A stretch of 64,000 nucleotides of DNA from assembly GCA_902792515.1 (NCBI GenBank), contig CADAZX010000012.1, forward strand, positions 6,165 to 70,164, in the 5' to 3' direction. Source of the stretch: an uncultured Ruminococcus sp. GTDB lineage: Bacteria > Bacillota > Clostridia > UBA1212. The notes beneath the pieces were generated by a model, which ran no database searches, had not been told where the DNA came from, and saw only the letters and a program-made list of their open reading frames with translations. Position 1 is the stretch's first letter. Each line of letters opens with the position of its first letter. Positions 279 to 15,048 of the stretch are shown here, in pieces. Both the position numbers and the translations under genes were made by a program.

Positions 279-355
279 TGGTGACCCCTACGAGAATCGA
301 ACTCGTGTCGCAGCCGTGAAAGGGCCGTGTCTTAACCTCTTGACCAAGGGGCCTT
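279..355 (-). tRNA. tRNA-Glu (anticodon TTC)
   Basis: Reverse complement reads GGCCCCTTGGTCAAGAGGTTAAGAC..CGGCC-CTTTCAC-GGCTG..GGTTCGATTC..AGGGGTCACCA. Cloverleaf arms pair; anticodon loop CTTTCAC gives UUC; 3' CCA is encoded. Confidence 0.8.
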
Positions 356-358
356 ATT

Positions 359-434
359 GGTGGCTGTGGTAGGACACGAACCCACGACCTTCCGGGTATG
401 AACCGGACGCTCTAACCAGCTAAGCTACACAGCC
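359..434 (-). tRNA. tRNA-Met (anticodon CAT; initiator/elongator/Ile-lysidine not distinguished)
   Basis: Reverse complement reads GGCTGTGTAGCTTAGCTGGTTAGAGCGTCCGGTTCATACCCGGAAGGTCGTGGGTTCGTGTCCTACCACAGCCACCA. Anticodon stem TCCGG/CCGGA with loop TTCATAC; T-arm GGTTCGTGTCC; CCA end. Confidence 0.8.
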
Positions 435-3714: not shown

Positions 3715-5721
3715 TCAGTAAAGCTTCGCGCCTGCGGGAATGTGCGGATCGAGCATGAGCAGGTTGAGCCGCTCCTCCTCGCCTTCCTTGTGGACAGCGG
3801 AGAGCAGCATGCCGCAGGATTCGATTCCCATCATCGCTCTTGGCGGAAGGTTCGTGATTGCGACGCACGTCTTTCCGACAAGCTGTTCGGGCTCGTAAAA
3901 CGCGTGAATTCCGCTCAGAATCGTGCGGTTCGTGCCCGTTCCGTCGTCAAGCGTGAACTTCAGAAGCTTTTTCGACTTCGGAACCGCCTCACACTCGAGG
4001 ACCTTCACGGCGCGGAAATCCGACTTCGAGAACGTCTCAAAATCGACCGTATCGCTGAAAAGCGGCTCGATCACAACGTTCGAAAAGTCGATCTTCTCTT
4101 CAACAGGAGCCTCGTTCCCGGCTTCCTGCGCCGCCTTGCAAGCCTCTTGAGATGGGCAGGTAAAGCAGGCGCACCCGGGTTCTCCGGCCTTTGCCTCTGC
4201 CTTTTCGGGCTTTTTATTGTCAAGCGACTTCATTGTCGGGAACAGCAAAACGTCGCGAATGGCCGGGCTGTCGGTGAGCAGCATTGTGAGTCTGTCGATG
4301 CCGTAGCCGATTCCACCCGTGGGCGGCATGCCGATCTCGAGCGCGTTGAGGAAGTCCTCGTCGGTATGGTTGGCCTCTTCGTCGCCTGCCGCAAAAGCCG
4401 CGTCCTGGGCCGCGAAACGTTCGCGCTGGTCGATCGGGTCGTTGAGCTCCGAGTATGCGTTGCACATCTCCCAGCCGTTGATGAACAGCTCGAAACGTTC
4501 AACGTAACCGGGCTTGTCGGGCTTGCGCTTCGTGAGCGGCGAGACCTCGACCGGGTGGTCCATAATGAAGGTCGGCTGGATGAGCTTGTCCTCGCAGAAC
4601 TCCTCGAAGAAAAGGTTGAGAATGTCGCCCTTTTGGTGACGCTCTTCAAACTCGACGCCCTTCTCCTTCGCGATCTTTTTCGCCTCTTCGGTGTCCTTGA
4701 CCTCGTCAAAGTCCACGCCGGCGTATTCCTTGACCGCGTCGATCATCGTAAGACGCCTGAAGGGCTTGCCGAGGTCGATAACTTTGTCGCCGTACTTGAT
4801 CTCGGTCGTGCCGCATACGGTCGTGGCGACGTGGCGGAACATGGACTCGGTGAGTTCCATCATTCCGTAGTAGTCGGTGTATGCCTGGTAGAGCTCCATG
4901 AGCGTGAACTCCGGGTTGTGCCTCGTGTCGACGCCTTCGTTGCGGAAAACGCGTCCGATCTCGTAAACGCGCTCCAATCCGCCGACGATGAGCCTCTTAA
5001 GGTAGAGTTCGAGCGAAATCCTCAGCTTCACGTCCTCGTCAAGCGCGTTGAAATGCGTCTCAAACGGCCTCGCAGCGGCACCGCCCGCGTTCGCGACAAG
5101 CATGGGCGTCTCGACCTCCATAAAGTCGCGGCCGTCCAGGAACCTTCTGATCTCGCGGATGATCTGCGAGCGCTTCACAAAAGTATCCCTGACCTCCGGG
5201 TTCATAATGAGGTCGATGTAACGCTGTCTGTAGCGCGTGTCGGTGTCCGTAATGCCGTGGAACTTTTCCGGAAGCGGATTCAACGACTTCGTGAGCAGCG
5301 TGAGTTCCTCCGCGTGAACGCTCGTCTCGCCTGTTTTCGTTTTGAAAACGAACCCCTTCACGCCGATGATGTCGCCGATGTCGAGCGTTTTGAAAAGCGC
5401 GTACGGCTCCTCACCGAGCGAATCGCGCGCCACGTAGAGCTGAATTCTGCCCGTTCTGTCGAGAATGTGCGCGAACGAAGCCTTGCCCATGATGCGTTTC
5501 GCCATAAGACGGCCCGCGAGCACGACCTGCTTCCCCTCAAGCTCCTCGAAATTCGCGAGAACCTCTGAAGAGAGGTGCGTCCTGTCGAACTTTGTGATCT
5601 TGTAAGGGTCGATTCCGCGCGCTCTTAGGTCGGCAAGCTTGCCGCGCCTCACAACCATCTGTTCCGAAAGCTGCCTTCCCTCGCCGCTTTCATCAGTTTC
5701 GGGTCTCATATTTTCTGCCAT
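3715..5721 (-). CDS. lysS: lysine--tRNA ligase (class II) with a C-terminal EMAP/Trbp111-like tRNA-binding domain
   Basis: N-terminal OB fold and class II core (GIDPY..; FMEVETP; ..[30 protein letters not shown]), followed by a ~170-aa extension that contains a Myf/tRNA_bind-type domain ([43 protein letters not shown]). RBS AGAGGTAA. Confidence 0.9.
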
Positions 5722-6449: not shown

Positions 6450-7958
6450 TTATTTCAGTTTGGCGTAGCCGTTATCCTTCAGAATAACGTCGTGCGCGCC
6501 GCCCTCGACGATGCTTGTCGAGCTGACCATCGTCAGCTTCGCGTTTTTGTGGAATTCCTCTATCGTGAGAACTCCGCAGTTGCACATTGTCGAGCGGATT
6601 TTTCCTAAAGTTAGGGCAATATTGTCGCTGAGTTTGCCCGCGTAGGGAACGTAGGAGTCAACGCCCTCCTCAAACGAGAGCTTTGACGCGCCGCCCATGT
6701 CGTAGCGCTGCCAGTTCCTTGCCCTGTTCGAGCCCTCGCCCCAGTACTCTTTGTAATACGTGCCGTTGATGTTGACCTTCGCCGACGGGCTCTCGTCGAA
6801 CCTCGCGAAATACCTGCCGAGCATTATGAAATCGGCGCCCATCGCCAGCGCGAGAGTCATGTGGTAGTCGAAAACGATTCCGCCGTCAGCGCAGAGCGGT
6901 ACGTAAACGCCCGTCTCCTCAAAGTATTTGTCGCGCTCCGCCGCAACGTCGATAACAGCCGAAGCCTGTCCGCGGCCGATACCCTTCTGCTCTCTCGTGA
7001 TGCAGATCGAACCGCCTCCGATACCGATCTTCACGAAGTCCGCGCCCGCGTCCGCAAGGAACCTGAACGACTCACCGTCGACAACGTTTCCGGCGCCAAC
7101 CTTCACGCTGTCACCGTATTTCGACCTGATCCACGCGATCGTCTCCTTCTGCCACTCGGAGTAACCCTCCGAAGAGTCGATGCACAGCACGTCCGCGCCC
7201 GCCTCAATAAGGGCCGGCACTCTCTTTTCGTAGTCGCGGCTGTTGATGCCCGCGCCGACCATGTACTGCTTGTGCTCGTCCAGAAGCTCGTCCGGGTTGT
7301 CCTTGTGCATATCGTAGTCCTTGCGGAAAACGAAATACTTCAGGTGGTCGTTCTCGTCGATGATCGGCAGCGAGTTGATCTTCTTCTCCCAGATAATGTC
7401 GTTCGCCTCTTTCAGCGACACGCCCTCTCTCGCGTAAACCAGCTTCGAAAACGGCGTCATAAACTCGGAAACCTTTTCGTCGCCGGTCATTCTGCTCGGC
7501 CTGTAGTCGCGGCTCGTAACGATGCCCAGAAGCTTTCCGCAGCAGGAACCGTCGTCGGTTATCGCTATCGTCGAAAATCCGTTTTCCTCTTTGAGCTTGA
7601 TCACGTCACTCAGCGTCGAATCCGGCCTCAGGTTTGACCTGCTGACAACGAATCCCGACTTGTAGCGCTTGACCTTGGAAACCATTTCCGCCTCGGACTC
7701 GATGCTCTGCGACCCGTAAATGAACGAAAGTCCGCCGCACTTCGCAAGCGCCACCGCCATGTTGTCGTCGGAAACGGCCTGCATTATCGCAGAAACCATC
7801 GGAATATTGATTGAAAGCGCCGGCTTCTCGCCCCTCCTGAATTTCACGATAGGCGTCTTCAGCGACACGTTCGACGGAACGTGCTGCTTGGAAGTATACC
7901 CCGGCAGGAGCAGGAACTCGTTAAATGTATGCGAGGGTTCCGGATAAATAAATGCCAT
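6450..7958 (-). CDS. guaB: IMP dehydrogenase (IMPDH/GMPR family with CBS pair)
   Basis: 502 aa with an inserted CBS region and the catalytic loop [13 protein letters not shown]-terminal flap [20 protein letters not shown] 8 nt upstream. Confidence 0.8.
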
Positions 7959-8097
7959 GTTTTAAATCCTCCGTTTATCAGTTAACCCGCTTGCGGCCCT
8001 TTTTCCCGGTCCGCCGCGCATGAAAAGTTCGCTTCAGATATAATAAAAAAAGCATCGGCGCGTGCTTTTGGCCACGCTACCCACACTTCATATTGCG

Positions 8098-8126
8098 ATT
8101 ATACTACGATTTTTTGCCGATTTCAA
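8098..8126 (-). promoter_or_regulatory. putative sigma-70 promoter of guaB
   Basis: Minus strand reads TTGAAA (8126..8121), 17-nt spacer, TATAAT (8103..8098), about 140 nt upstream of the guaB start. Confidence 0.4.
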
Positions 8127-8141
8127 GCGATTTCTTTCAAA

Positions 8142-8220
8142 GCCGCACTTTATGTTGCGTCTCTCACTTGACTGGGCAAAGCCCAGAATCGTTCGAACCG
8201 CAACATAAAGCTGCGGCGGC
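8142..8220. repeat. X-type palindromic element, copy X1 (arms tttatgttgcg / cgcaacataaa)
   Basis: Left arm gccgcactttatgttgcg, core ctcacttgac-tgggcaaagccca-gaatcgttcgaac, right arm cgcaacataaagctgcggcggc. Arms pair over 6+11 bp with a 1/2-nt bulge. Confidence 0.7.
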
Positions 8221-8280
8221 TCTTTCACAAGGTTGACATTGCTCGCGGAGTCGCCGCAGGCACCTTATTATTCCGTAAAA

Positions 8281-8348
8281 GCCTGTGTGTTTCGCACGAA
8301 GGCGACTCGTAGCCTTAGCTACGTCGGAGACTGAGTGGAAACACACAG
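8281..8348. repeat. H2-type element copy 1 (12-bp outer stem, conserved internal loops, inner hairpin)
   Basis: cctgtgtgtttc | GCACGAAGGCGAC | tcgtagc-ctt-agctacg | TCGGAGACTGAGTG | gaaacacacagg. Confidence 0.7.
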
Positions 8349-8407
8349 GGTTTATCGTTCGTGACGCCGATGCAAAGCTGCGGCGGCTCGAATTAAGGAA
8401 GCATTAA

Positions 8408-8483
8408 TGCACTTTATGTTGCGCCTCTCACTTGACTGGGCAAAGCCCAGAATCGTTCGAACCGCAACATAAAGCTGCGGCGG
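8408..8483. repeat. X-type palindromic element, copy X2 (atgttg type)
   Basis: Near-identical to X1: gcactttatgttgcg .. ctcacttgac tgggcaaagccca gaatcgttcgaac cgcaacataaagctgcggcggc. Confidence 0.7.
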
Positions 8484-8504
8484 CTCTAGATAAGGATGTG
8501 TTGA

Positions 8505-8558
8505 TGCACTTTGCATCGCGCCCCTCACTTGACGACGCACTTGATATTGCACCGCAGG
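8505..8558. repeat. partial X-type units (left arms of gcatcg and gatattg types, no adjacent partners)
   Basis: gcactttgcatcgcg-ccctcacttgac-gacgcacttgatattgca-ccgcaggc. The complementary gcatcg-type right arm lies at 8365..8386, on the other side of X2. Confidence 0.6.
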
Positions 8559-8578
8559 CTCCTTATTACTCCGTTAAA

Positions 8579-8632
8579 TCCTGTGTGTTTCGCAAGAAGG
8601 CGACTCGTAGCCTTAGCTACGTCGGAGACTGT
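8579..8632. repeat. H2-type element copy 2 (3' stem truncated)
   Basis: cctgtgtgtttcgcaagaaggcgactcgtagccttagctacgtcggagactgtg; the closing gaaacacacagg is missing. Confidence 0.55.
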
Positions 8633-8700
8633 GTAAAGAGCTGAAAATCGGCTTCTTGAAAACGCCTAGTTTCGAGCTATTTTTGAGAGTGCTTGTCCGA

Positions 8701-8778
8701 AGCCGCACTTTGCATCGCGCCCCTCACTTGACTGGGCAAAGCCCAGAATCGTTCGTGACGCCGATGCAAAGCTGCGGC
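8701..8778. repeat. X-type palindromic element, copy X3 (arms tttgcatcg / cgatgcaaa)
   Basis: gccgcactttgcatcgcg-cccctcacttgac-tgggcaaagccca-gaatcgttcgtgac-gccgatgcaaagctgcggcg. Confidence 0.7.
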
Positions 8779-8813
8779 GTCCTACACAAGGTTGCTAACG
8801 CAAGTTAGCCGAG

Positions 8814-8881
8814 TCGCGTATGTCTCGCGCGAAGGCGACTTTTAGCGTCAGCTAAACTGGAGACTGAGCGGAGACATACGC
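8814..8881. repeat. H2-type element copy 3 (different stems, same loops)
   Basis: cgcgtatgtctc | GCGCGAAGGCGAC | ttttagc-gtc-agctaaa | CTGGAGACTGAGCG | gagacatacgcg. Confidence 0.7.
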
Positions 8882-8993
8882 GGCTCTACTGCGAGAGGCA
8901 AGCCCTCTCAAAGCAATTCGCCAGCAATTGTCGAAGACACCTTATTCTCTTTTAGCTCCGGCGAATTGCGTAAAGAGCCGAAAATCGGCGTTT

Positions 8994-10322
8994 TTAATAC
9001 ATCAGGTTCACGTAGCTCGCATGATCCCCCATCGGGTCGATCGACCTGCCGCTCACGACCACGGTCGTGACCGTGTACTTCCCGGCCGCGAAATCCGTCG
9101 CGAACTTCGTGTACGTCGCGAGCTGCGACGGCGTGTTGATGCTGTGATACACAAAGCCCGACACAGTCGTCATGATCTCGTTGATCCTTCCGACGTTTTC
9201 GATCGTGATGACTTTCTTGGAGAAGTCCCTGATGAAGCGCAGCTGGTTGGCCTTTCTGTAGGGGTCGCCGGTCGAGCTGATTCTGCCGTTTTCGTTGTAG
9301 CGGTTTCTGGTGCGCAGGAACGTAACCGTCTCGGCGCCGTTTAAATGGTGGTAGCCCTTTGTGTACTTCAGCTCCGTTTTTCCGGTCGCCGAGTTCATGA
9401 CCCACCTGTCCTCGGAAAAATACACGTCCGCGCCGCCGAAAAGGTCGACAAACTTGGCCATGCCGTCCGGGTCGACGAAAATGTAGTCGTCAATGTGCAT
9501 GTTGGCGTCAGGCATCATCGCGCCGATGATGTGGCAGAGAAAATCGATTCCGGAGTTGCCGAACTTGCCGTCCTTGTACTTGATGAACTTGCCGATCGGA
9601 TAGCAGGCGTTCAGCTTGTATATACCCTTGCTCTTGTTGAGGCCGGTTCTCACAAGGTAGTCCTGCACCGCGCCGGTATACGGCACGTATGCGTCTCTCG
9701 CCAGCGAATAGCAGTCGACCGTTTTGGTGCGCTCGCAGATGCTGACGACTATCATCGTGTCGGTGAGGTCTGATTTGTTGTCGTAGCCTAAAAGTAGGAT
9801 ATTTTTGGCATCGGGCTGAAGTTTGACGTTGCTGCCGGCCGTTTTCGACACGCCCTCAACTATCGGGTCGGGAACGTAAGGAACCGTAGGTCCCGGGGCA
9901 CCTGTCGGCGGAGCCACGTCGGCCGGTTTAGGCGTCGGTGAAGGCGTCGGAGTCGGTGTCGGAGTAGCGTCGGGGTCTTCGGTTTCCGGAGTGGAAGAAG
10001 GATCCTCAGTAGAGGCTTCGGTTGGCGGAGGCGTTTCGGCCGGCTGCTCCGTTACCGTTGCCGGGTCCGGAGTCGGCGTAACCTCCTCGAGGTTTTCAAG
10101 GTCTGAGATGTCGATGACCTTGTCGCCCGGGTTTACCACAACGGTCTCGCCACCATGGTCGTTGTGCGGCTCGTTTTTCAGCGAGTTCCTCATAAACTTC
10201 ACGAGCGGAAGGAGCGTCGATACGTACACGACAACAAAGACAACAATAAAAATGTTGACGAAAATGCGGAGAGCCCTGCTGCCCGTCCCGTTATTCTTTT
10301 TCTTTTTAAAGTCTTTCTTCAT
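8994..10322 (-). CDS. LytR-CpsA-Psr (LCP) family cell-envelope phosphotransferase
   Basis: 442 aa: N-terminal TM helix, Pro/Thr-rich linker, then LCP domain motifs (NILLLGYDNKSDLTDTMIVVS, ..R.AYV..). Confidence 0.8.
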   Translation of the reverse strand: MKKDFKKKKNNGTGSRALRIFVNIFIVVFVVVYVSTLLPLVKFMRNSLKNEPHNDHGGETVVVNPGDKVIDISDLENLEEVTPTPDPATVTEQPAETPPPTEASTEDPSSTPETEDPDATPTPTPTPSPTPKPADVAPPTGAPGPTVPYVPDPIVEGVSKTAGSNVKLQPDAKNILLLGYDNKSDLTDTMIVVSICERTKTVDCYSLARDAYVPYTGAVQDYLVRTGLNKSKGIYKLNACYPIGKFIKYKDGKFGNSGIDFLCHIIGAMMPDANMHIDDYIFVDPDGMAKFVDLFGGADVYFSEDRWVMNSATGKTELKYTKGYHHLNGAETVTFLRTRNRYNENGRISSTGDPYRKANQLRFIRDFSKKVITIENVGRINEIMTTVSGFVYHSINTPSQLATYTKFATDFAAGKYTVTTVVVSGRSIDPMGDHASYVNLMY

Positions 10323-10499
10323 TATCTATTACACCTGCGGCGCGCCGCGTCCGCGCTTCCGTTTTCGCCCGGACAGTAATATTATACTACGTTTTATTGA
10401 AAAAATCTTGATTTTCCGGCGCTATTTTATTTCCCGGTTTTTGAGCGGTTTTCCGCGCCAAGGATTTTTGATACTCGTCAGAGTTTTTCGCAGGGCTGT

Positions 10500-11582
10500 T
10501 TACTCCGCGTCCGGAACGTACCCCGCCGCCTTGTAGTCGGTTTCGTTCATAAAAACGTACGAGACGCCGCCCTGGAAGTAGTTGTCAGTGATCCGTTCCT
10601 TGTCGTACCACGTGACGTCGATGTAAAGCGGTCCCTCGTCAGAGTAGACGCGGTTCCAGGCGTGGCGCTCGTCCGTTCCCGGCGCGAGTCCCGCGATAAA
10701 GTCGCAGCGGATGCCCGCCTTCCCGCAGAGCAGCTGAAACGCCTCCGCATACCCCCTGCAAACGGTCGTCCCGTTCACGAAAACGTTGTACGCGAGGTAC
10801 GGATCCATGACCGACGCCTGCGAGTCCTCGTAAACGCACGCCGCCGAAATCACCAGCGCGAAGTACCAGCACTTGTAATAGTTGCTCATTCCCGAAGGCA
10901 TTTTCGCGATAACCCTGTCGACAGTCTTGTTGAAAACGTCGACCGCGTTTTTGACAGCCGCCCTGTCCTCGGTCGCGTGCGGCAGCCACTCGTTGGGCAT
11001 GTAGTATTTGAGCTTGTAGATCTCCCCGAAAAGCCCCTCCGTATCAACGTCGGAATAAAGGTACAGGTCCTTCCTGCCCGCGTGAATCGCGTCCGTAGCG
11101 TCCACGACGACGGCGAAGAAGTTCGAGATTTCCGGGTAGTCCTTTTCGTTGATCGAAAAGTCGCCGAACGACTCGGCCGCTTCAACAATTTTGTCGTAAA
11201 TCTCACGTGACATCGCGTTTTTGATCGAATCGCGCGGGTTTTTAGCGGGTTCCGGACCGTCGCTTAAGACGTTGAGCTCGTCCGCGTCGACCGTATTGAG
11301 GAGCATGACCGCCTTTTTGATCGCGGGGTCGATGTGGCGCGCGGCTTTTTCTTCGTTCGCGTCGGCGAAAACCTCATTCTCATCGAAAATGACGGTAAAG
11401 CGGTCCGGCTCCGGCGTCGGTTCGGGCGTCGGAGCCTCAGTTTGAGCAGGTGCCGGCGTCGAATTATGGACTATGGTTATGATGCCGCACGAAGCGCACA
11501 CGCACAGAAACACCGCCGCGGCGACAACCGCCGCAACCGCCCTCAAAAACCTTCTGATTCTTTTAGCGTTCCCGTGTTCCAT
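10500..11582 (-). CDS. transglutaminase-like (Cys-His-Asp) lipoprotein
   Basis: Start at MEHGNAKR (ATG 11582) with a GGAAGGGG RBS. Signal/lipobox ..CVCASCG. Catalytic triad context CRGYAEAF, HAWN, DVTW. Confidence 0.7.
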   Translation of the reverse strand: MEHGNAKRIRRFLRAVAAVVAAAVFLCVCASCGIITIVHNSTPAPAQTEAPTPEPTPEPDRFTVIFDENEVFADANEEKAARHIDPAIKKAVMLLNTVDADELNVLSDGPEPAKNPRDSIKNAMSREIYDKIVEAAESFGDFSINEKDYPEISNFFAVVVDATDAIHAGRKDLYLYSDVDTEGLFGEIYKLKYYMPNEWLPHATEDRAAVKNAVDVFNKTVDRVIAKMPSGMSNYYKCWYFALVISAACVYEDSQASVMDPYLAYNVFVNGTTVCRGYAEAFQLLCGKAGIRCDFIAGLAPGTDERHAWNRVYSDEGPLYIDVTWYDKERITDNYFQGGVSYVFMNETDYKAAGYVPDAE

Positions 11583-11639
11583 TTCTGCCCCTTCCAATGA
11601 TTTCCGCATCTGAAACCGCGCGTGCGGCTCAAATTTTAC

Positions 11640-12185
11640 TCAAATTTTACCCAGCACGCGCCTCACCTCGAAGCTGCGCAGCGCCATCTCCTTCATGACC
11701 TGGTCGTCATGCTTAATGTATATCTCGTAAACGACGCCCTCGTCGACGGACCTGGCGTTAAAGCCGTAAGCCTCTTCATCGTCGTCGCCGAAGCAGTACA
11801 AAACCTTCGGGGCGTCTTCCTTCCTGACACCGTCGTTCTTTTTCGCCAGAACGTCGGCGGTTTTTACCTTCCTGAAATTCTCAAGGTCCTTTATGAGGAA
11901 ACTCATGACCTTCTTGCGGCGCGTCTGGTTCCTGATCTCGGAAATCGTAAACTCGCCCATAACTATCGAAAACTCGTACTCCAGATTGTTGTACTTCATA
12001 ATAAGCACCATCCCGTAAAACGCGATTGCGAAAACGAGAATGATCAGCAGAAAGCCGATCAGATGGTAAAAAATGTATATAACCGTCGCGACGGCAAGCG
12101 CCGCGATAGCGATGAGAATGCAGTAAATTACCGCGGTCTTGTTTTTTCTTGCCTTTACAAAGGTTTCGATTACTTCTTCTCTCAT
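11640..12185 (-). CDS. hypothetical membrane protein (two TM helices plus cytoplasmic domain)
   Basis: 181 aa with RBS GGAAG and two hydrophobic helices near the N-terminus. Confidence 0.55.
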   Translation of the reverse strand: MREEVIETFVKARKNKTAVIYCILIAIAALAVATVIYIFYHLIGFLLIILVFAIAFYGMVLIMKYNNLEYEFSIVMGEFTISEIRNQTRRKKVMSFLIKDLENFRKVKTADVLAKKNDGVRKEDAPKVLYCFGDDDEEAYGFNARSVDEGVVYEIYIKHDDQVMKEMALRSFEVRRVLGKI

Positions 12186-12312
12186 ATTATAACTTCCGAT
12201 AAAGGAAAGCGCACCTCCGAAGGGTTGTCGTATCGCCTCCGGGGGTGCGAAAAACCGCCACCATCATCTGGGGCATTCAATTATATTGGTTGCGCTTCGC
12301 ATTTCACCTGTC

Positions 12313-12449
12313 GCCGCACTTTGCATCGCGCCCCTCACTTGACGCCGCACTTTATGTTGCGCCCCTCACTTGACGACGCACTTGATATTGCACCGCTCAC
12401 TTGACCGCTTCGCGGAATCGTTCACGTCGCAATATCAAGCTGCGGCGGC
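12313..12449. repeat. 3x tandem 31-nt units (X-type left arm + CTCACTTGAC) plus one complementary right arm
   Basis: gccgcactttgcatcgcg-cccctcacttgac / gccgcactttatgttgcg-cccctcacttgac / gacgcacttgatattgca-ccgctcacttgac, then cgcttcgcggaatcgttcacgt, then cgcaatatcaagctgcggcggc, which pairs with unit 3. Confidence 0.7.
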
Positions 12450-12506
12450 TCTTCCACAAGGTAGATATTGCTCGCGGAATCGCCGCAGGCCCCGTGACGA
12501 TTCAAA

Positions 12507-12576
12507 CCAGGTGAGTCTCGCGCGAGGGCGACTTTTAGCGGCAGCTAAACCGGAGACCAAGCGGAGACTCACCTGG
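12507..12576. repeat. H2-type element copy 4 (overlaps the stop codon of the substrate-binding protein gene)
   Basis: ccaggtgagtctc | GCGCGAGGGCGAC | ttttagc-ggc-agctaaa | CCGGAGACCAAGCG | gagactcacctgg. Confidence 0.7.
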
Positions 12577-14020
12577 TAATCCAGCCGGCCTGGGCTTTTT
12601 CCTGCAGCGTCTGCAGGCTTTCCAACATCGTTCTCTCGCCGGACAGATAGCCGTCGATCGCGTAGGAGATGTCTATCTCGTTCGCGGACATTACCGGCAT
12701 GAAGCAGCCGAGGGAGCCCGCGAAGTCGGCGGATTCGGCGAAGTTCGAGAACACGGACGAGTTTTTGCCCGGCTTCGGGTATTCACGCCAGAACTTCTGG
12801 GTGTTGGCCGCCCTGTTAGCGGGAACGGCCTGGCCGTCGAGCGCGTAGCTCTTGGCGGCGTCGGTAACGGTCGCGTAGAGAGCGAGGTAAGCGCAGGCGC
12901 GGTAGAAGTCGTCGTTGTAGACGTCGCTCTTGCCGTGGTTCACGACAGCGAAGCCGTACACGTTGGCAGCGATCGCCTGGTAGTAAATACCGTTTTCCGC
13001 GTAGTTCTCGTCGTTCCAGCGCGGGAAGTGGATGTAGTCCCATTCCCACTTTGCGCCTTCGGCCTCAGGGTCTTCGGCGGCGAGGAGCGTCTCGGACCAT
13101 GTCGCGATGTCCTCGTGGTCAGCGATGATGAACGCGTATTTGGAGATGTCCTCGGGAGCGATATCCTTGGAGTCGATGCAGTCGACAAGTCCGCGCTCGG
13201 GGTTCACGATCTCGGCGAGGTCCTCAAGGCCGCTGACGACGTCGGGGTGCGTCAGGTTGAGTTCCTTGACCGTTTCCGAGTTGCCCACGTAGTCGTACAC
13301 GTCCTGGCCGTAGCTTCTCGCAAACGCGCCCCAGATCGCGTAGTCCTTGTAGTTCATCGCGATGGGAGTTTCGACGCCCTTCCCTTTCAGCGCCTCGGCG
13401 ATCTCAACCAGGTCGTCCCACGTCCAGTCGTCGTGCGGGAACGTGTAGCCCGCGGAGGAGATCAGCGAGTAGTTGAGCAGTACGAACTTGTGGTTGTACT
13501 CCATCGCCACCATGTACATGTCGCCGTTGTAGAAGCAAGCGTTGTACGCGGCGGGAAGAAGGTCGGCCGACGGATTGATTTTATTGTACGTGTCGAAGTT
13601 GAGCACTTCGCCGATGTACGGCCCGAGGTCGACAAGTTTGCCCTGCTGCGCGTAAAGTTCCATGCGCGGGGCGTCGAGGAGGATGACGTCGCCGGCGTTT
13701 TCGAGGTCGTCGCCGCTCATGAGGTCGTCGAGAACCTCAAAGTAAAGCGAAGTGGAGACCTTGTCGAGGTCGATGTCGATCTCAACGCCCGGGTAGTCGG
13801 AGTAGAAGACTGACTTGAACTTTTCGAGGTTCTGCGAGTTCTCGGAGTAGAGGTAGCCGGAGAGCTTGATCTCGGAAACGAGGTTCTCCGGAGTCGGTCT
13901 CGGAGTCGGCTTTATCTTATCGTCGTCGTCATCTTTTTTGGGCGTGCAGCCGGCCATTATCGCGAGCGCGAGAATGACGCAGATCGCAGCCGCAAGGAAA
14001 GCTTTTATTTTTCTGTTCAT
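12569..14020 (-). CDS. ABC transporter substrate-binding lipoprotein (extracellular solute-binding family 1, sugar type)
   Basis: Start at MNRKIKAFLAAAICVILALAIMAGC (ATG 14020..14018) with a GGAGGAGG RBS; the ORF-track N-terminal extension to 14299 is not supported. Lipobox, poly-Asp linker, SBP fold. Confidence 0.8.
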   Translation of the reverse strand: MNRKIKAFLAAAICVILALAIMAGCTPKKDDDDDKIKPTPRPTPENLVSEIKLSGYLYSENSQNLEKFKSVFYSDYPGVEIDIDLDKVSTSLYFEVLDDLMSGDDLENAGDVILLDAPRMELYAQQGKLVDLGPYIGEVLNFDTYNKINPSADLLPAAYNACFYNGDMYMVAMEYNHKFVLLNYSLISSAGYTFPHDDWTWDDLVEIAEALKGKGVETPIAMNYKDYAIWGAFARSYGQDVYDYVGNSETVKELNLTHPDVVSGLEDLAEIVNPERGLVDCIDSKDIAPEDISKYAFIIADHEDIATWSETLLAAEDPEAEGAKWEWDYIHFPRWNDENYAENGIYYQAIAANVYGFAVVNHGKSDVYNDDFYRACAYLALYATVTDAAKSYALDGQAVPANRAANTQKFWREYPKPGKNSSVFSNFAESADFAGSLGCFMPVMSANEIDISYAIDGYLSGERTMLESLQTLQEKAQAGWITR

Positions 14021-14034
14021 AAGTGCCTCCTCCT

Positions 14035-15048
14035 TTATTCGATAACGCCTATACGTTCGATACCGGCGGCAAGCTGTTTCTGACCGAGAATGTAGACGAT
14101 CATAACGGGGAGCATAACCATAAGGCAGCCCGCGAAGAGCATCGGCTCGGAGAGCGACTTTTCGAGCTCGGACATTGCGCCCTGGCTGGTCGCGTACTTG
14201 CTGTAGTACATCTGAATGTTCTGGAGTCTCGGCTGGAGCGTCTGGTGGCCGTCGATGTACATGTACGTTGGAGCCTCGTAGTTGTCGTTCCAGTGCCATA
14301 CGAACGAGAATATGAATACGATCGCGATAGCGGACTTTACGAGCGGGAGCATGATCTGTCCGAAGACCCTGATCGGGCCCGCACCGTCGATTCTGGCCGC
14401 GTCGTCCATAACGTCAGGAATTCTCTGGAAGAAGTACATGTAGATCAGCACGAAAAGCGCGCCGCGGAGGCCGAGTCCGAAAACGCACGGAAGCACGACC
14501 GGTCCCCAGGTGTTTACGAGACTGAGCGTCGCCCACAGACCGTAGGACGCGAGAATCATAACCTGCGGGGGGATGAGCAGTACAAGTACGACGAGGAAGA
14601 AAATAACGTTTCTGACCTTGAACTTGTAGCGGCCCAGCGAGTACCCTATCAGAGCGCACGCGGTCGTCTGGAACAGAGCCGAGAGGAGCGACGTTCCCAT
14701 CGAGTTGAAGAACGACTTGACGTAGTCGAGCGCCTCGAAAGCCTTCACGAAGTTGTCCCAGTTGACGGTGGTCGGGATGTACTGGACCGTCGGGTCCATG
14801 TAGTCCTGCGACGTCATGAGAGACGTGGAGAAAATGTAGATGAAAGGCAGAATGAAAAGGTACGCCATCTCGATGAGTACGAAGTACACAAAGATTCTGG
14901 AGATGATGAACGTGATCTTCTTCTTTGCCTTGTAGCCGAGATTCTCATATTTTTTGATGAATCCCTTGATGCCGCCGAGCTTCTTTTCGGTCTGCACGGC
15001 CGCGGCATCCGCTTGGGCAGCGGCGGTGTTAACAGCTTCCGGTGTCAC
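14035..15048 (-). CDS. carbohydrate ABC transporter permease (MalG-like)
   Basis: Six TM helices. Start chosen at the GTG (15048..15046), which sits 8 nt after GGAGG and overlaps the upstream stop as GTGA. The ORF track gives 15057, where the RBS abuts the start. Confidence 0.75.
   Translation of the reverse strand: MTPEAVNTAAAQADAAAVQTEKKLGGIKGFIKKYENLGYKAKKKITFIISRIFVYFVLIEMAYLFILPFIYIFSTSLMTSQDYMDPTVQYIPTTVNWDNFVKAFEALDYVKSFFNSMGTSLLSALFQTTACALIGYSLGRYKFKVRNVIFFLVVLVLLIPPQVMILASYGLWATLSLVNTWGPVVLPCVFGLGLRGALFVLIYMYFFQRIPDVMDDAARIDGAGPIRVFGQIMLPLVKSAIAIVFIFSFVWHWNDNYEAPTYMYIDGHQTLQPRLQNIQMYYSKYATSQGAMSELEKSLSEPMLFAGCLMVMLPVMIVYILGQKQLAAGIERIGVIE

What the first reader, a model, noticed from the sequence alone, without database searches (positions are those of the whole stretch)
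8281..8881. H2-type elements: variable 12-13 bp stems with invariant internal loops
Four copies exist: 8281-8348, 8579-8632 (truncated), 8814-8881 and 12507-12576. They have completely different outer stems (cctgtgtgtttc/gaaacacacagg; cgcgtatgtctc/gagacatacgcg; ccaggtgagtctc/gagactcacctgg) and different inner hairpins (cgtagc-ctt-agctacg vs tttagc-gNc-agctaaa). The two internal loops are conserved throughout: GCRCGARGGCGAC and YYGGAGACYRAGYG. Conserved loops with covarying stems are the signature of a folded functional element.
Basis: seen in the sequence. Interest (0 to 1): 0.8.

Follow-up and report, generated by a model that had tools for sequence, protein, structure and literature searches.

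The report
Hairpin module of mosaic intergenic repeats
The "H2" hairpins are real, strongly folding, about 70-base elements, but they are one building block of a non-coding repeat family that litters the intergenic DNA of one narrow group of gut/rumen Clostridia, so they most resemble REP/BIME/MITE-type selfish repeats rather than a new RNA gene or ribozyme.

Summary
There are three full H2 copies and one truncated copy, all on the + strand, in two intergenic regions.

The "invariant loops" are not open loops. They hold five more Watson-Crick pairs, two of which covary, interleaved with conserved G.A pairs. H2 is therefore an irregular 27-pair rod.

Across 66 copies (34 distinct) from the window, one MAG (Mageeibacillus sp. 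UBA1212) and related metagenome contigs:
- 97.6% of cells pair.
- 15 pairs show compensatory double changes.
- No Rfam family matches.

H2 is one module of a larger system. About 350-nt composites have 24-29-nt terminal inverted repeats that enclose hairpins H4, H1, H2 and H3. Modules sit nested in each other's apical loops, are truncated, or form tandem arrays. They differ between strains and between sister species. They flank unrelated housekeeping genes, and no transposase gene was found.

Best reading: a clade-restricted, REP/BIME/MITE-like mobile repeat. Its + strand folds, and its conserved purine mismatches probably serve as recognition marks for a trans-acting single-strand enzyme. That last step is inferred. 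An RNA-level role is not excluded. Interest is moderate to low.

The parts
8282..8349 (+). H2 copy 1. Stem cctgtgtgtttc/gaaacacacagg, inner hairpin CGTAGC-CTTA-GCTACG. It is preceded by the leader 8250-8281 (gtcgccgcaggcaccttattattccgtaaaag) and followed by gttt + ATCGTTCG, so it sits as an 'M2 unit' in front of an orphan H1 3' half.
   Evidence: MFE -31.7, z -4.2; CM 8280-8351, 92.3 bits.
8580..8631 (+). H2 copy 2, truncated after GGAGACTG and fused to a TIR-R fragment (8633-8652, gtaaagagctgaaaatcggc).
   Evidence: (CM 8588-8637, 36.8 bits, model positions 11-62).
8815..8882 (+). H2 copy 3. Stem cgcgtatgtctc/gagacatacgcg. It lies inside the full composite element 8656-8997.
   Evidence: MFE -33.6, z -5.3; 94.4 bits.
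12507..12576 (+). H2 copy 4. Stem ccaggtgagtctc/gagactcacctgg. Its 3' arm contains the stop codon (12569-12571, TGA on the minus strand) of the solute-binding-protein gene 12569-14299.
   Evidence: MFE -40.6, z -6.7; 96.2 bits. In one search the orthologous copy in UBA1212 is 71/72 identical.
8142..8217 (+). H1 module, complete. Further complete copies lie at 8409-8481, 8702-8778 and 12375-12446. Layout: GCCGCA stem, covarying 11-12 bp stem with a bulged C, conserved 13/13-nt internal loop (YCYCTCACTTGAC / GAATCGYTCRNGN), variable apical hairpin.
8354..8384 (+). Orphan H1 3' half (ATCGTTCG tgacgccgatgcaaag ctgcggc), immediately after H2 copy 1.
   Evidence: family D11; the complete nested arrangement is seen in L137.
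8506..8553 (+). Two consecutive orphan H1 5' halves.
   Evidence: family D2.
12313..12374 (+). Two consecutive orphan H1 5' halves of 31 nt each, upstream of the complete H1 at 12375-12446.
8656..8692 (+). TIR-L, the left terminal inverted repeat of the composite element (TTGAAAACGCCTAGTTTCGAGCTATTTTT...).
8964..8997 (+). TIR-R, the right terminal inverted repeat (..GCGTAAAGAGCCGAAAATCGGCGTTTTTAA). It includes the only terminator-like hairpin found (8977-8989) and abuts the LytR stop codon at 8994-8996.
8685..8909 (+). H4, a putative long-range helix (8685-8695 gagagtgcttg with 8899-8909 caagccctctc). It encloses H1 (8702-8778), a small hairpin (8794-8809) and H2 (8815-8882).
   Evidence: One search shows the same architecture with different sequence in L019.
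8913..8969 (+). H3 helix (gcaattcgcc / ggcgaattgc) closing the conserved AGCAATTGTCGAAGACACCTTATT segment.
   Evidence: (I10).

Best explanation
H2 is a roughly 70-nt imperfect-palindrome module of a lineage-specific, non-coding, interspersed mosaic repeat family. The family occurs in a Mageeibacillus-like clade of Oscillospiraceae.

Shown here:
- H2 folds on the window's + strand into an irregular rod. From the base: a 12-13 bp stem, a bulged G, 3 bp, a tandem G.A/A.G, 2 bp, G.A, C-G, a second tandem G.A/A.G, C-G, a small pyrimidine bulge, and a 6-bp hairpin.
- It occurs alone, as the second hairpin of about 350-nt composites bounded by 24-29-nt terminal inverted repeats, and nested in the apical loops of other modules. 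Other modules are also nested inside H2.
- The arrays differ between strains and between sister species.
- They lie beside unrelated housekeeping genes.

Inferred:
- The element is selfish or mobile DNA of the REP/REPIN/BIME/MITE kind. It propagates or rearranges through folded single-stranded DNA.
- The helices only need to pair. The invariant purine-purine mismatches and the bulged G are strand-specific recognition marks for a trans-acting single-strand enzyme, a transposase, nuclease or recombinase encoded elsewhere in the genome.
- As a side effect, the arrays probably act as transcription barriers between genes.

The confidence of 0.6 applies to the repeat-family reading as a whole. The specific ssDNA-enzyme mechanism alone would rate about 0.35.
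For: Fold and covariation:
- 66 copies, 34 distinct; 97.6% of cells paired against 85.6% in shuffles.
- 15 pairs with double changes; sliding the partner columns drops pairing to 24-45%.

The + strand is the folding strand:
- Non-Watson-Crick cells in the stems are 5 G.T and 8 G.A/A.G against 1 A.C.
- Apical loops are mostly G..A-closed.
- The + strand is 1.3-3.9 kcal/mol more stable than the - strand.

DNA-like perfection of the stems:
- 831 of 848 stem cells are Watson-Crick and only 5 are wobble.
- All 16 H1 variants have perfectly complementary variable stems.

Repeat-family behaviour:
- 19 copies on 14 stretches of one MAG, and none in the other roughly 185,000 species genomes.
- 43 copies in metagenome contigs of the same clade. 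None in viral contigs.
- Terminal inverted repeats are 85-92% identical within an element, and the two ends co-vary between elements.
- Short units of about 170 nt without H1/H2 occur in tandem arrays.
- Nesting of H2 in H1 and of H1 in H2.
- A composite is present in UBA1212 between two genes that are 30 nt apart in the window.
- Strains carrying the identical DUF6106 protein have different arrays.
- 44 unrelated neighbouring gene families, none mobile.
- Only 7 of 30 TIR-L copies have a plausible -35 element.

Precedent:
- REPIN hairpins show common compensatory changes (PMC3116915).
- TnpA-REP needs the conserved mismatched bulge of REP, and restoring a regular stem abolishes activity.
- IntI, relaxases and IS200/IS605 TnpA read irregularities of folded ssDNA in a strand-specific way (PMC8266576).
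Against: - No transposase, RAYT or integrase was found in the window or in about 1 Mb of related DNA. That is only a fraction of a genome.
- No target-site duplication or clean empty site could be defined.
- The folding strand is more often antisense to neighbouring genes, 42 against 19 with redundant loci. In this window it lies on the C-rich strand. That is the leading-strand template, the opposite of what IS200/IS605-type elements prefer.
- Loop invariance outside the window is partly by ascertainment, because copies were fetched with a pattern that fixes the loop bases. The covariance model recovered only three or four loop-variant copies.
- Some metagenome 'polymorphisms' may be assembly chimeras.
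Confidence: 0.6

Rival explanations
1. H2 works as RNA. The composite, or H2 alone, is transcribed as a multi-copy small RNA or as part of UTRs. The G.A-rich rod would be a protein-binding or processing site, for example for an RNA-binding protein or a double-strand/irregular-helix RNase, that modulates stability or termination of neighbouring transcripts.
For: - Multi-branched fold of the whole composite: z -9.0 and -7.3 in two copies of different sequence.
- Purine-rich internal loops, G..A-closed apical loops, and G.U/G.A tolerated on one strand only.
- The window composite has a TTGAAA-16-TATTTT promoter-like site and a good + strand terminator.
- The H2 at the SBP gene end is 71/72 conserved between species whose genes are about 91% identical.
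Against: - There is no conserved promoter: 7 of 30 TIR-L copies have a -35 match of 4/6 or better, and only 2 reach 5/6.
- Most TIR-R ends lack a U-run.
- Elements occur in both orientations relative to genes.
- G.U makes up only about 0.6% of stem cells, and double changes outnumber single wobble changes by about 20 to 1.
- Many copies are truncated, nested or orphan halves.
- No Rfam match.
Confidence: 0.22
2. H2 has no specific partner. The arrays are simply palindromic spacers that the host keeps as bidirectional transcription terminators or insulators and mRNA 3' stabilisers between genes.
For: - Arrays lie between a stop codon and the next promoter.
- In UBA1212 a composite replaces the small terminator hairpin present in the window.
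- Both TIRs read inward as a hairpin followed by a T-rich run.
Against: - H2 itself has no U-tract. The terminator scan flags only the TIR-R hairpin in the LytR-IMPDH spacer, plus two sites in the second spacer that are not H2.
- Generic terminators would not keep 14 unpaired or mismatched positions nearly invariant while the stems drift.
- Arrays also occur between divergent genes.
Confidence: 0.1
3. H2 belongs to a known structured class: a self-cleaving ribozyme, a riboswitch or leader, a K-turn element, or an integron attC site.
For: Superficial resemblance only: two 'internal loops', tandem G.A pairs, an imperfect palindrome with conserved unpaired bases.
Against: - No Rfam family matches at the gathering score or at E<=10.
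- The tandem G.A pairs are flanked on both sides by covarying Watson-Crick pairs, with no adjacent 3-nt bulge.
- There are no conserved AAC/GTT core sites, no integrase and no cassette ORFs.
Confidence: 0.03

Closest known systems
REP / REPIN elements with RAYT (TnpA-REP) transposases, and their BIME arrays
   Same: - Short intergenic imperfect palindromes in many copies.
- The hairpin is maintained by compensatory changes (PMC3116915).
- Conserved mismatches or a bulge inside the stem are needed for strand-specific recognition of folded ssDNA (PMC8266576).
- Clustered into mosaic arrays.
- Lineage-restricted.
   Different: - H2 is about twice as long, with 27 pairs.
- It has three G.A motifs instead of one AA-GC bulge.
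- There is no conserved 5' GTAG.
- Arrays are head-to-tail rather than alternating or inverted doublets.
- Modules are nested in each other's loops.
- No RAYT was found.
- The host is a Clostridium-class Firmicute rather than a proteobacterium.
MITEs with structured interiors (e.g. Neisseria Correia elements, pneumococcal BOX and RUP elements; reviewed in PMC3184786 and PMC2229807)
   Same: - Non-coding elements under 400 nt with terminal inverted repeats.
- Modular build (BOX A-B-C).
- Strongly folding.
- Sit next to gene ends, with presence/absence differences between strains.
   Different: - No target-site duplication and no parent insertion sequence was identified.
- The interior modules H1, H2 and H3 each show long-term covariation and conserved non-canonical bubbles. 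That goes beyond what TIR-driven transposition requires.
IS200/IS605-derived PATEs
   Same: - Hairpin-based, strand-specific, no duplication.
- The H2-bearing 'M2' unit is found 3' of GAATCG and itself ends in ..TTTATCG in several nested cases. This resembles insertion 3' of a fixed short target.
   Different: - There is one large hairpin rather than two subterminal ones.
- The preferred orientation is opposite to the lagging-strand-template bias of that family.
Integron attC sites
   Same: Sequence-variable stems with conserved unpaired bases, read as a folded single strand. Same-orientation arrays.
   Different: No AAC/GTT core sites, no integrase, no cassettes, and scattered through housekeeping intergenic regions.

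Membership tests
Any Rfam 15 family (ribozymes, leaders, riboswitches, known sRNAs) | Covariance-model score at or above the family's gathering threshold | tested here: not met
   Only two tRNAs pass in the whole window. At E<=10 over 7900-13000, nothing overlaps H2. One RT-3 match (13.5 bits, gathering score 40.5, E 8.7) overlaps the H1 array at 12327-12442 on the minus strand and is noise.
REP/REPIN-RAYT | Multi-copy intergenic imperfect palindrome that folds as a single strand, with conserved mismatches | tested here: met
   19 copies in one MAG. 97.6% of cells paired, with invariant G.A positions. Folds with DNA energy parameters at z -4.3 to -7.0.
REP/REPIN-RAYT | Conserved GTAG tetranucleotide 5' of the hairpin | tested here: not met
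   The 5' flanks are ..CCGTAAAAG..GGTAGAAT..CGACAAAT and ..TTCAAAC. GTAG occurs only inside the inner hairpin of one subfamily.
REP/REPIN-RAYT | Inverted doublets (REPIN), or alternating orientation in BIMEs | tested here: not met
   All modules in the window arrays, and in L130, are in the same orientation, head to tail.
REP/REPIN-RAYT | Cognate Y1 (HUH) transposase gene, usually flanked by the repeats | tested here: inconclusive
   None among the Pfam-scanned window ORFs and 20 array neighbours. No whole genome was available.
MITE | Terminal inverted repeats bounding a short non-coding element | tested here: met
   24-29-nt TIRs in 7 composites of 347-381 nt. All TIR pairs lie 120-390 nt apart.
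MITE | Target-site duplication of fixed length | tested here: inconclusive
   No matching flanks in L019, L027 or L010. The only filled/empty pair is between species too diverged to align at the junction.
MITE | Presence/absence polymorphism at orthologous sites | tested here: met
   A composite is present in UBA1212 (L010 about 6830-7200) and absent in the window (30-nt spacer 11610-11639). Arrays differ among strains L136, L137 and L138.
MITE | Autonomous insertion sequence with the same TIRs | tested here: inconclusive
   No TIR-L/TIR-R pair more than 390 nt apart in 1.0 Mb of held sequence.
Integron attC | R''/R' core sites with conserved AAC/GTT, and an integrase or cassette array | tested here: not met
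   The outer stem ends vary. GTT/AAC is present only in the gtttc/gaaac subfamily. No integrase was found.
Kink-turn RNA motif | Three-nucleotide bulge immediately followed by tandem sheared G.A/A.G pairs | tested here: not met
   Both G.A tandems are flanked on both sides by Watson-Crick pairs, and 17-58 and 21-54 covary. The only bulge is a single G three pairs away.
Intrinsic terminator | G+C-rich hairpin followed by a U-run | tested here: not met
   The scan flags none of the H2 copies. It flags the TIR-R hairpin at 8977-8989 and two sites in the second spacer, 12459-12440 (-) and 12580-12594 (+), which lie outside H2. H2 is followed by only 3-4 T.

The most novel reading that the evidence does not exclude
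H1, H2 and their relatives could be substrates of an unidentified strand-specific single-strand enzyme that inserts hairpin modules into the apical loops of other hairpins. That would make them a previously undescribed, loop-targeting class of miniature mobile DNA in Clostridia that reads a G.A-rich irregular helix. Alternatively, the roughly 350-nt five-helix composite could be a multi-copy structured RNA with a new purine-rich protein-binding rod.
Probability: 0.2. Interest if true: 0.65.

Novelty: new variant of a known kind. Interest (0 to 1): 0.35.

Why it matters
If the reading is right, this extends REP/REPIN-like 'hairpin replicators' to an uncultured Oscillospiraceae lineage. The recognition architecture is unusual (three conserved G.A motifs in a long rod), and so is the habit of nesting modules inside each other's loops.

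Practically, these arrays break short-read assemblies: several contigs end at the repeats. They may also create chimeric contigs. They supply stop codons and probably terminators to neighbouring genes.

It does not open a long-standing question. The partner enzyme and the acting nucleic acid remain unknown.

Tried and rejected
- Rfam at gathering and at E<=10: nothing.
- Ribozyme cores (hammerhead, hairpin, twister-type) checked by eye on both strands: no match.
- Kink-turn and loop-E motifs: the geometry does not fit.
- Integron attC: no core sites.
- Phage or prophage origin: PHROGs gave only housekeeping-type hits. The viral scan gave two hits, neither confirmed by the covariance model.
- Single pattern hits in 32 unrelated genomes are chance. 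The best, L016, scores 27.7 bits, has no stem and lies in a probably coding stretch.
- Recurrent neighbouring protein: none. Clusters only reflect orthologous loci.
- Transposase: not seen in the Pfam-scanned window ORFs or 20 array neighbours.
- Autonomous element with the same TIRs: none in held DNA.
- Target-site duplication: not definable.
- Conserved sigma-70 promoter in TIR-L: absent.
- Small ORFs preceded by AAGGA at 8386-8470: seen in two copies only, where GCCGCAC is replaced by ATGCAC. Judged coincidental.
- Orientation versus genes: only a 2:1 bias, from crude ORF calls and redundant loci. Not decisive.

Full report
**Context**

The window is a bacterial chromosome segment of about 55% G+C with housekeeping genes, mostly on the minus strand. 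These include LysRS, GreA, IMPDH (6450-7958), a LytR-family protein (8994-10322), a transglutaminase-like protein, DUF6106 (11640-12185) and sugar ABC-transporter genes.

A metagenome contig is 99.98% identical to the window. The GTDB genome Mageeibacillus sp. UBA1212 (Oscillospiraceae) is about 91% identical over 6 kb. The source is therefore a sister species of that MAG.

The H2 copies lie in the only two long intergenic spacers of the first 20 kb: 7959-8993 and 12186-12568. Each spacer runs from the stop codon of the upstream minus-strand gene to a good minus-strand promoter-like site for the next gene (8126-8098 and 12307-12280).

**Check of the observation**

Three full copies and one truncated copy are present, all on the + strand. 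Exact stem limits are 8282-8349, 8580-8631 (truncated), 8815-8882 and 12507-12576.

- The motif GGCGAC-N12-30-GGAGAC occurs 6 times against 0.48 expected, and four of those are H2.
- Each full copy folds far better than shuffled sequence. With RNA parameters the energies are -31.7, -33.6 and -40.6 kcal/mol (z -4.2 to -6.7). With DNA parameters z is -4.3 to -7.0.
- The + strand is always 1.3-3.9 kcal/mol more stable than its complement.

**Anatomy**

In an alignment of 14 distinct copies, and later 34 distinct copies out of 66, the 'invariant loops' resolve into further structure. From the base upward:
- outer stem of 12-13 bp
- bulged G
- C-R-C paired with G-Y-G (the middle pair switches A-U to G-C, 23:11)
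- tandem G.A/A.G (A.A in one subfamily)
- R-G paired with C-Y (A-U to G-C, 20:12)
- G.A
- C-G
- second tandem G.A/A.G
- C-G
- a U opposite two or three pyrimidines
- a 6-bp hairpin whose loop is usually G..A-closed

Overall, 97.6% of cells form standard pairs, against 85.6% in column shuffles and 24-45% when partners are slid. Fifteen pairs show changes on both sides.

The outer stems are diverged versions of one ancestral stem (YNNGTGNGTYTC), not unrelated sequences.

**Caveat on ascertainment**

Copies outside the window were fetched with a pattern that fixes most loop bases. Their loop invariance is therefore partly by construction. The covariance model tolerates loop changes. Over 409 kb of clade DNA it found only a few variants. 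One of them swaps G23.A52 to A.G.

**Which strand folds**

Departures from Watson-Crick pairing in the stems, read on the + strand, are 5 G.T and 8 G.A/A.G against 1 A.C. On the + strand the exceptions are the most stable mismatches. On the complement they would be the least stable. Together with the purine-rich bubbles and the G..A-closed apical loops, this identifies the + strand as the strand under folding constraint.

Wobble pairs are very rare, 5 of 848 stem cells. Double changes outnumber single wobble changes by about 20 to 1. All 16 variants of the companion H1 module have perfectly complementary variable stems. This near-perfect complementarity is more typical of DNA hairpins than of evolving RNAs. 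That judgement is inference.

**What H2 belongs to**

A scan of one genome per species (185,579 species) found 18 pattern hits on 14 stretches of a single genome, Mageeibacillus sp. UBA1212. The 32 other hits are single chance matches that the model rejects. The metagenome scan added 43 model-confirmed copies, all from the same narrow clade. The viral scan added none.

The flanks show that H2 is one module of a larger system:
- Composites of about 350 nt are bounded by 24-29-nt terminal inverted repeats. The repeats are 85-92% identical within an element, and both ends change together between elements.
- The composite folds into a closing helix P0, a helix H4 that encloses H1, a small hairpin and H2, and a separate helix H3.
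- Two copies with different sequences adopt the same architecture (z -9.0 and -7.3).
- Short units of about 170 nt (TIR-L, H3, TIR-R) lacking H1 and H2 occur in head-to-tail tandem arrays.

H2 also occurs in other settings:
- It is found alone (L038).
- It is found as an 'M2' unit, GAATCG | CCGCAGGCACCTTATTAYYCCGTAAAAG-H2-GTTTATCG | TTCG, inside the apical region of H1.
- H1 in turn is found inside the inner loop of H2.
- The orphan H1 half-sites in the window are explained as remnants of such nesting followed by deletions between short direct repeats. The comparison is L137 against window 12309-12506.

**Dynamics**

UBA1212 carries a full composite between the DUF6106 and transglutaminase genes. 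The window has only a 30-nt spacer with a small terminator hairpin there.

Contigs encoding the identical DUF6106 protein carry three different arrays in the neighbouring spacer. One of them lacks the H2 at the end of the SBP gene and uses a different stop codon. Another conspecific contig has a different array upstream of IMPDH. Many conspecific contigs simply end at the repeats.

One contig, L094, appears to join two loci through the repeats. Some of this variation may therefore be assembly artefact.

By contrast, the H2 that overlaps the stop codon of the SBP gene is 71/72 identical between the two species, while the surrounding genes are about 91% identical.

**Associated functions**

No protein family recurs next to the arrays. 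The 44 distinct neighbours are ordinary housekeeping genes, for example NifU, DnaJ, sortase, BMC shell protein and an ECF transporter. No transposase, integrase or HUH enzyme appears in the Pfam-scanned window ORFs or in 20 array neighbours.

No TIR pair encloses more than 390 nt. There is no conserved promoter: only 7 of 30 distinct TIR-L copies have a -35 match of 4/6 or better. Most right ends lack a U-run.

Orientation relative to the local coding strand is biased but not fixed, 42 opposite against 19 same, using crude gene calls and redundant loci.

**Interpretation**

The combined picture is as follows:
- multi-copy, non-coding, intergenic and clade-restricted
- bounded by inverted repeats
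- modular, nested, truncated and tandemly arrayed
- variable between strains

This is the behaviour of selfish interspersed repeats of the REP/REPIN/BIME/MITE kind.

The closest mechanistic precedent is the REP-RAYT system and other enzymes that read folded single-stranded DNA. REPIN hairpins commonly show compensatory changes (PMC3116915). The conserved mismatched bulge of E. coli REP is required by TnpA-REP. Strand-specific recognition of irregularities in hairpins is shared by IntI, relaxases and IS200/IS605 transposases (PMC8266576).

By analogy, I infer that H2's helices only need to pair. The invariant bulged G and the G.A motifs on the + strand would be recognition marks for a trans-acting enzyme. 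This step is inferred, not shown.

Membership in REP/REPIN proper fails on three points: no 5' GTAG, no inverted-doublet organisation, and no RAYT found. Membership in MITEs is incomplete: TIRs and polymorphism are met, while target-site duplication and a parent IS are undetermined.

An RNA-level role remains possible. I put it at about 0.2. A purely terminator or insulator role is less likely, because nearly invariant mismatched positions are not needed for that. Known ribozymes, leaders, kink-turns and attC sites are excluded by direct tests.

**Verdict**

H2 is a real, well-supported structured element, and apparently an undescribed family. It is best filed as a new variant within the known world of bacterial structured interspersed repeats, not as a new functional RNA class. 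Interest is moderate to low, 0.35.

The most novel reading still open is a loop-targeting hairpin mobile element with an unknown enzyme, or a multi-copy structured RNA. I give it a probability of about 0.2.

Noticed in passing
window 8142-8217, 8409-8481, 8702-8778, 12375-12446 (complete); 8354-8384, 8506-8553, 12313-12374 (orphan halves): The H1 module family has an 11-12 bp variable stem (TTTRYRTYGCG types) that is always perfectly complementary. It also has a conserved bulged C, a conserved 13/13-nt internal loop (YCYCTCACTTGAC / GAATCGYTCRNGN) and a variable apical hairpin. 5' halves occur as 31-nt tandem units without partners.
   Followed up: partly
window 8656-8997: A complete composite of about 340 nt, with terminal inverted repeats (8656-8692 and 8964-8997). 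It folds into P0 / H4 (enclosing H1, a small hairpin and H2) / H3, with z -9.0. The promoter-like site TTGAAA-16-TATTTT (8656-8683) and the + strand terminator (8977-8995) in this copy are not conserved in other copies.
   Followed up: yes
window 12569-12576; L138 about 2090-2120: The solute-binding-protein gene ends with a stop codon located inside the 3' arm of H2. A strain without that H2 uses a different stop codon (TAG) supplied by a TIR-R end. The repeat family therefore provides the gene's stop codon.
   Followed up: partly
window 11610-11639 versus L010 about 6830-7200: The sister species carries a full composite where the window has only a small terminator hairpin (CCGCACGCGCGG + TTTCAG on the minus strand) between the DUF6106 and transglutaminase-like genes.
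   Followed up: yes
L094 1-800: This contig joins the array of one locus (the L034/L076 type) to the 3' end of the LytR gene seen in the window. It is probably a metagenome assembly chimera through the repeats.
   Followed up: partly
L079 641-711; L082 1531-1602; L085 6087-6158: Variant H2 copies. One has the single G.A (positions 23/52) swapped to A.G. Others carry a tandem GA/AG mismatch inside the outer stem.
   Followed up: no
window 9911-9979 and 11405-11461: 12-nt periodic GGCGTCGG-type repeats inside the LytR-family and transglutaminase-like ORFs. They probably encode low-complexity linkers.
   Followed up: no
window 282-353 and 361-434 (minus strand): Two adjacent tRNA genes (61.0 and 66.6 bits). 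They are the only Rfam matches in the window.
   Followed up: no
window 3715-5721 (minus strand): A lysyl-tRNA synthetase-like gene carrying an extra C-terminal tRNA-binding domain (PF01588).
   Followed up: no
window 8386-8470 and 8488-8644: In two array units an AAGGA(A) motif lies 7-8 nt upstream of an ATG that replaces the usual GCCGCAC start of H1, giving short ORFs (21 aa and about 45 aa from these ATGs). This is not seen in other copies and was judged coincidental.
   Followed up: partly
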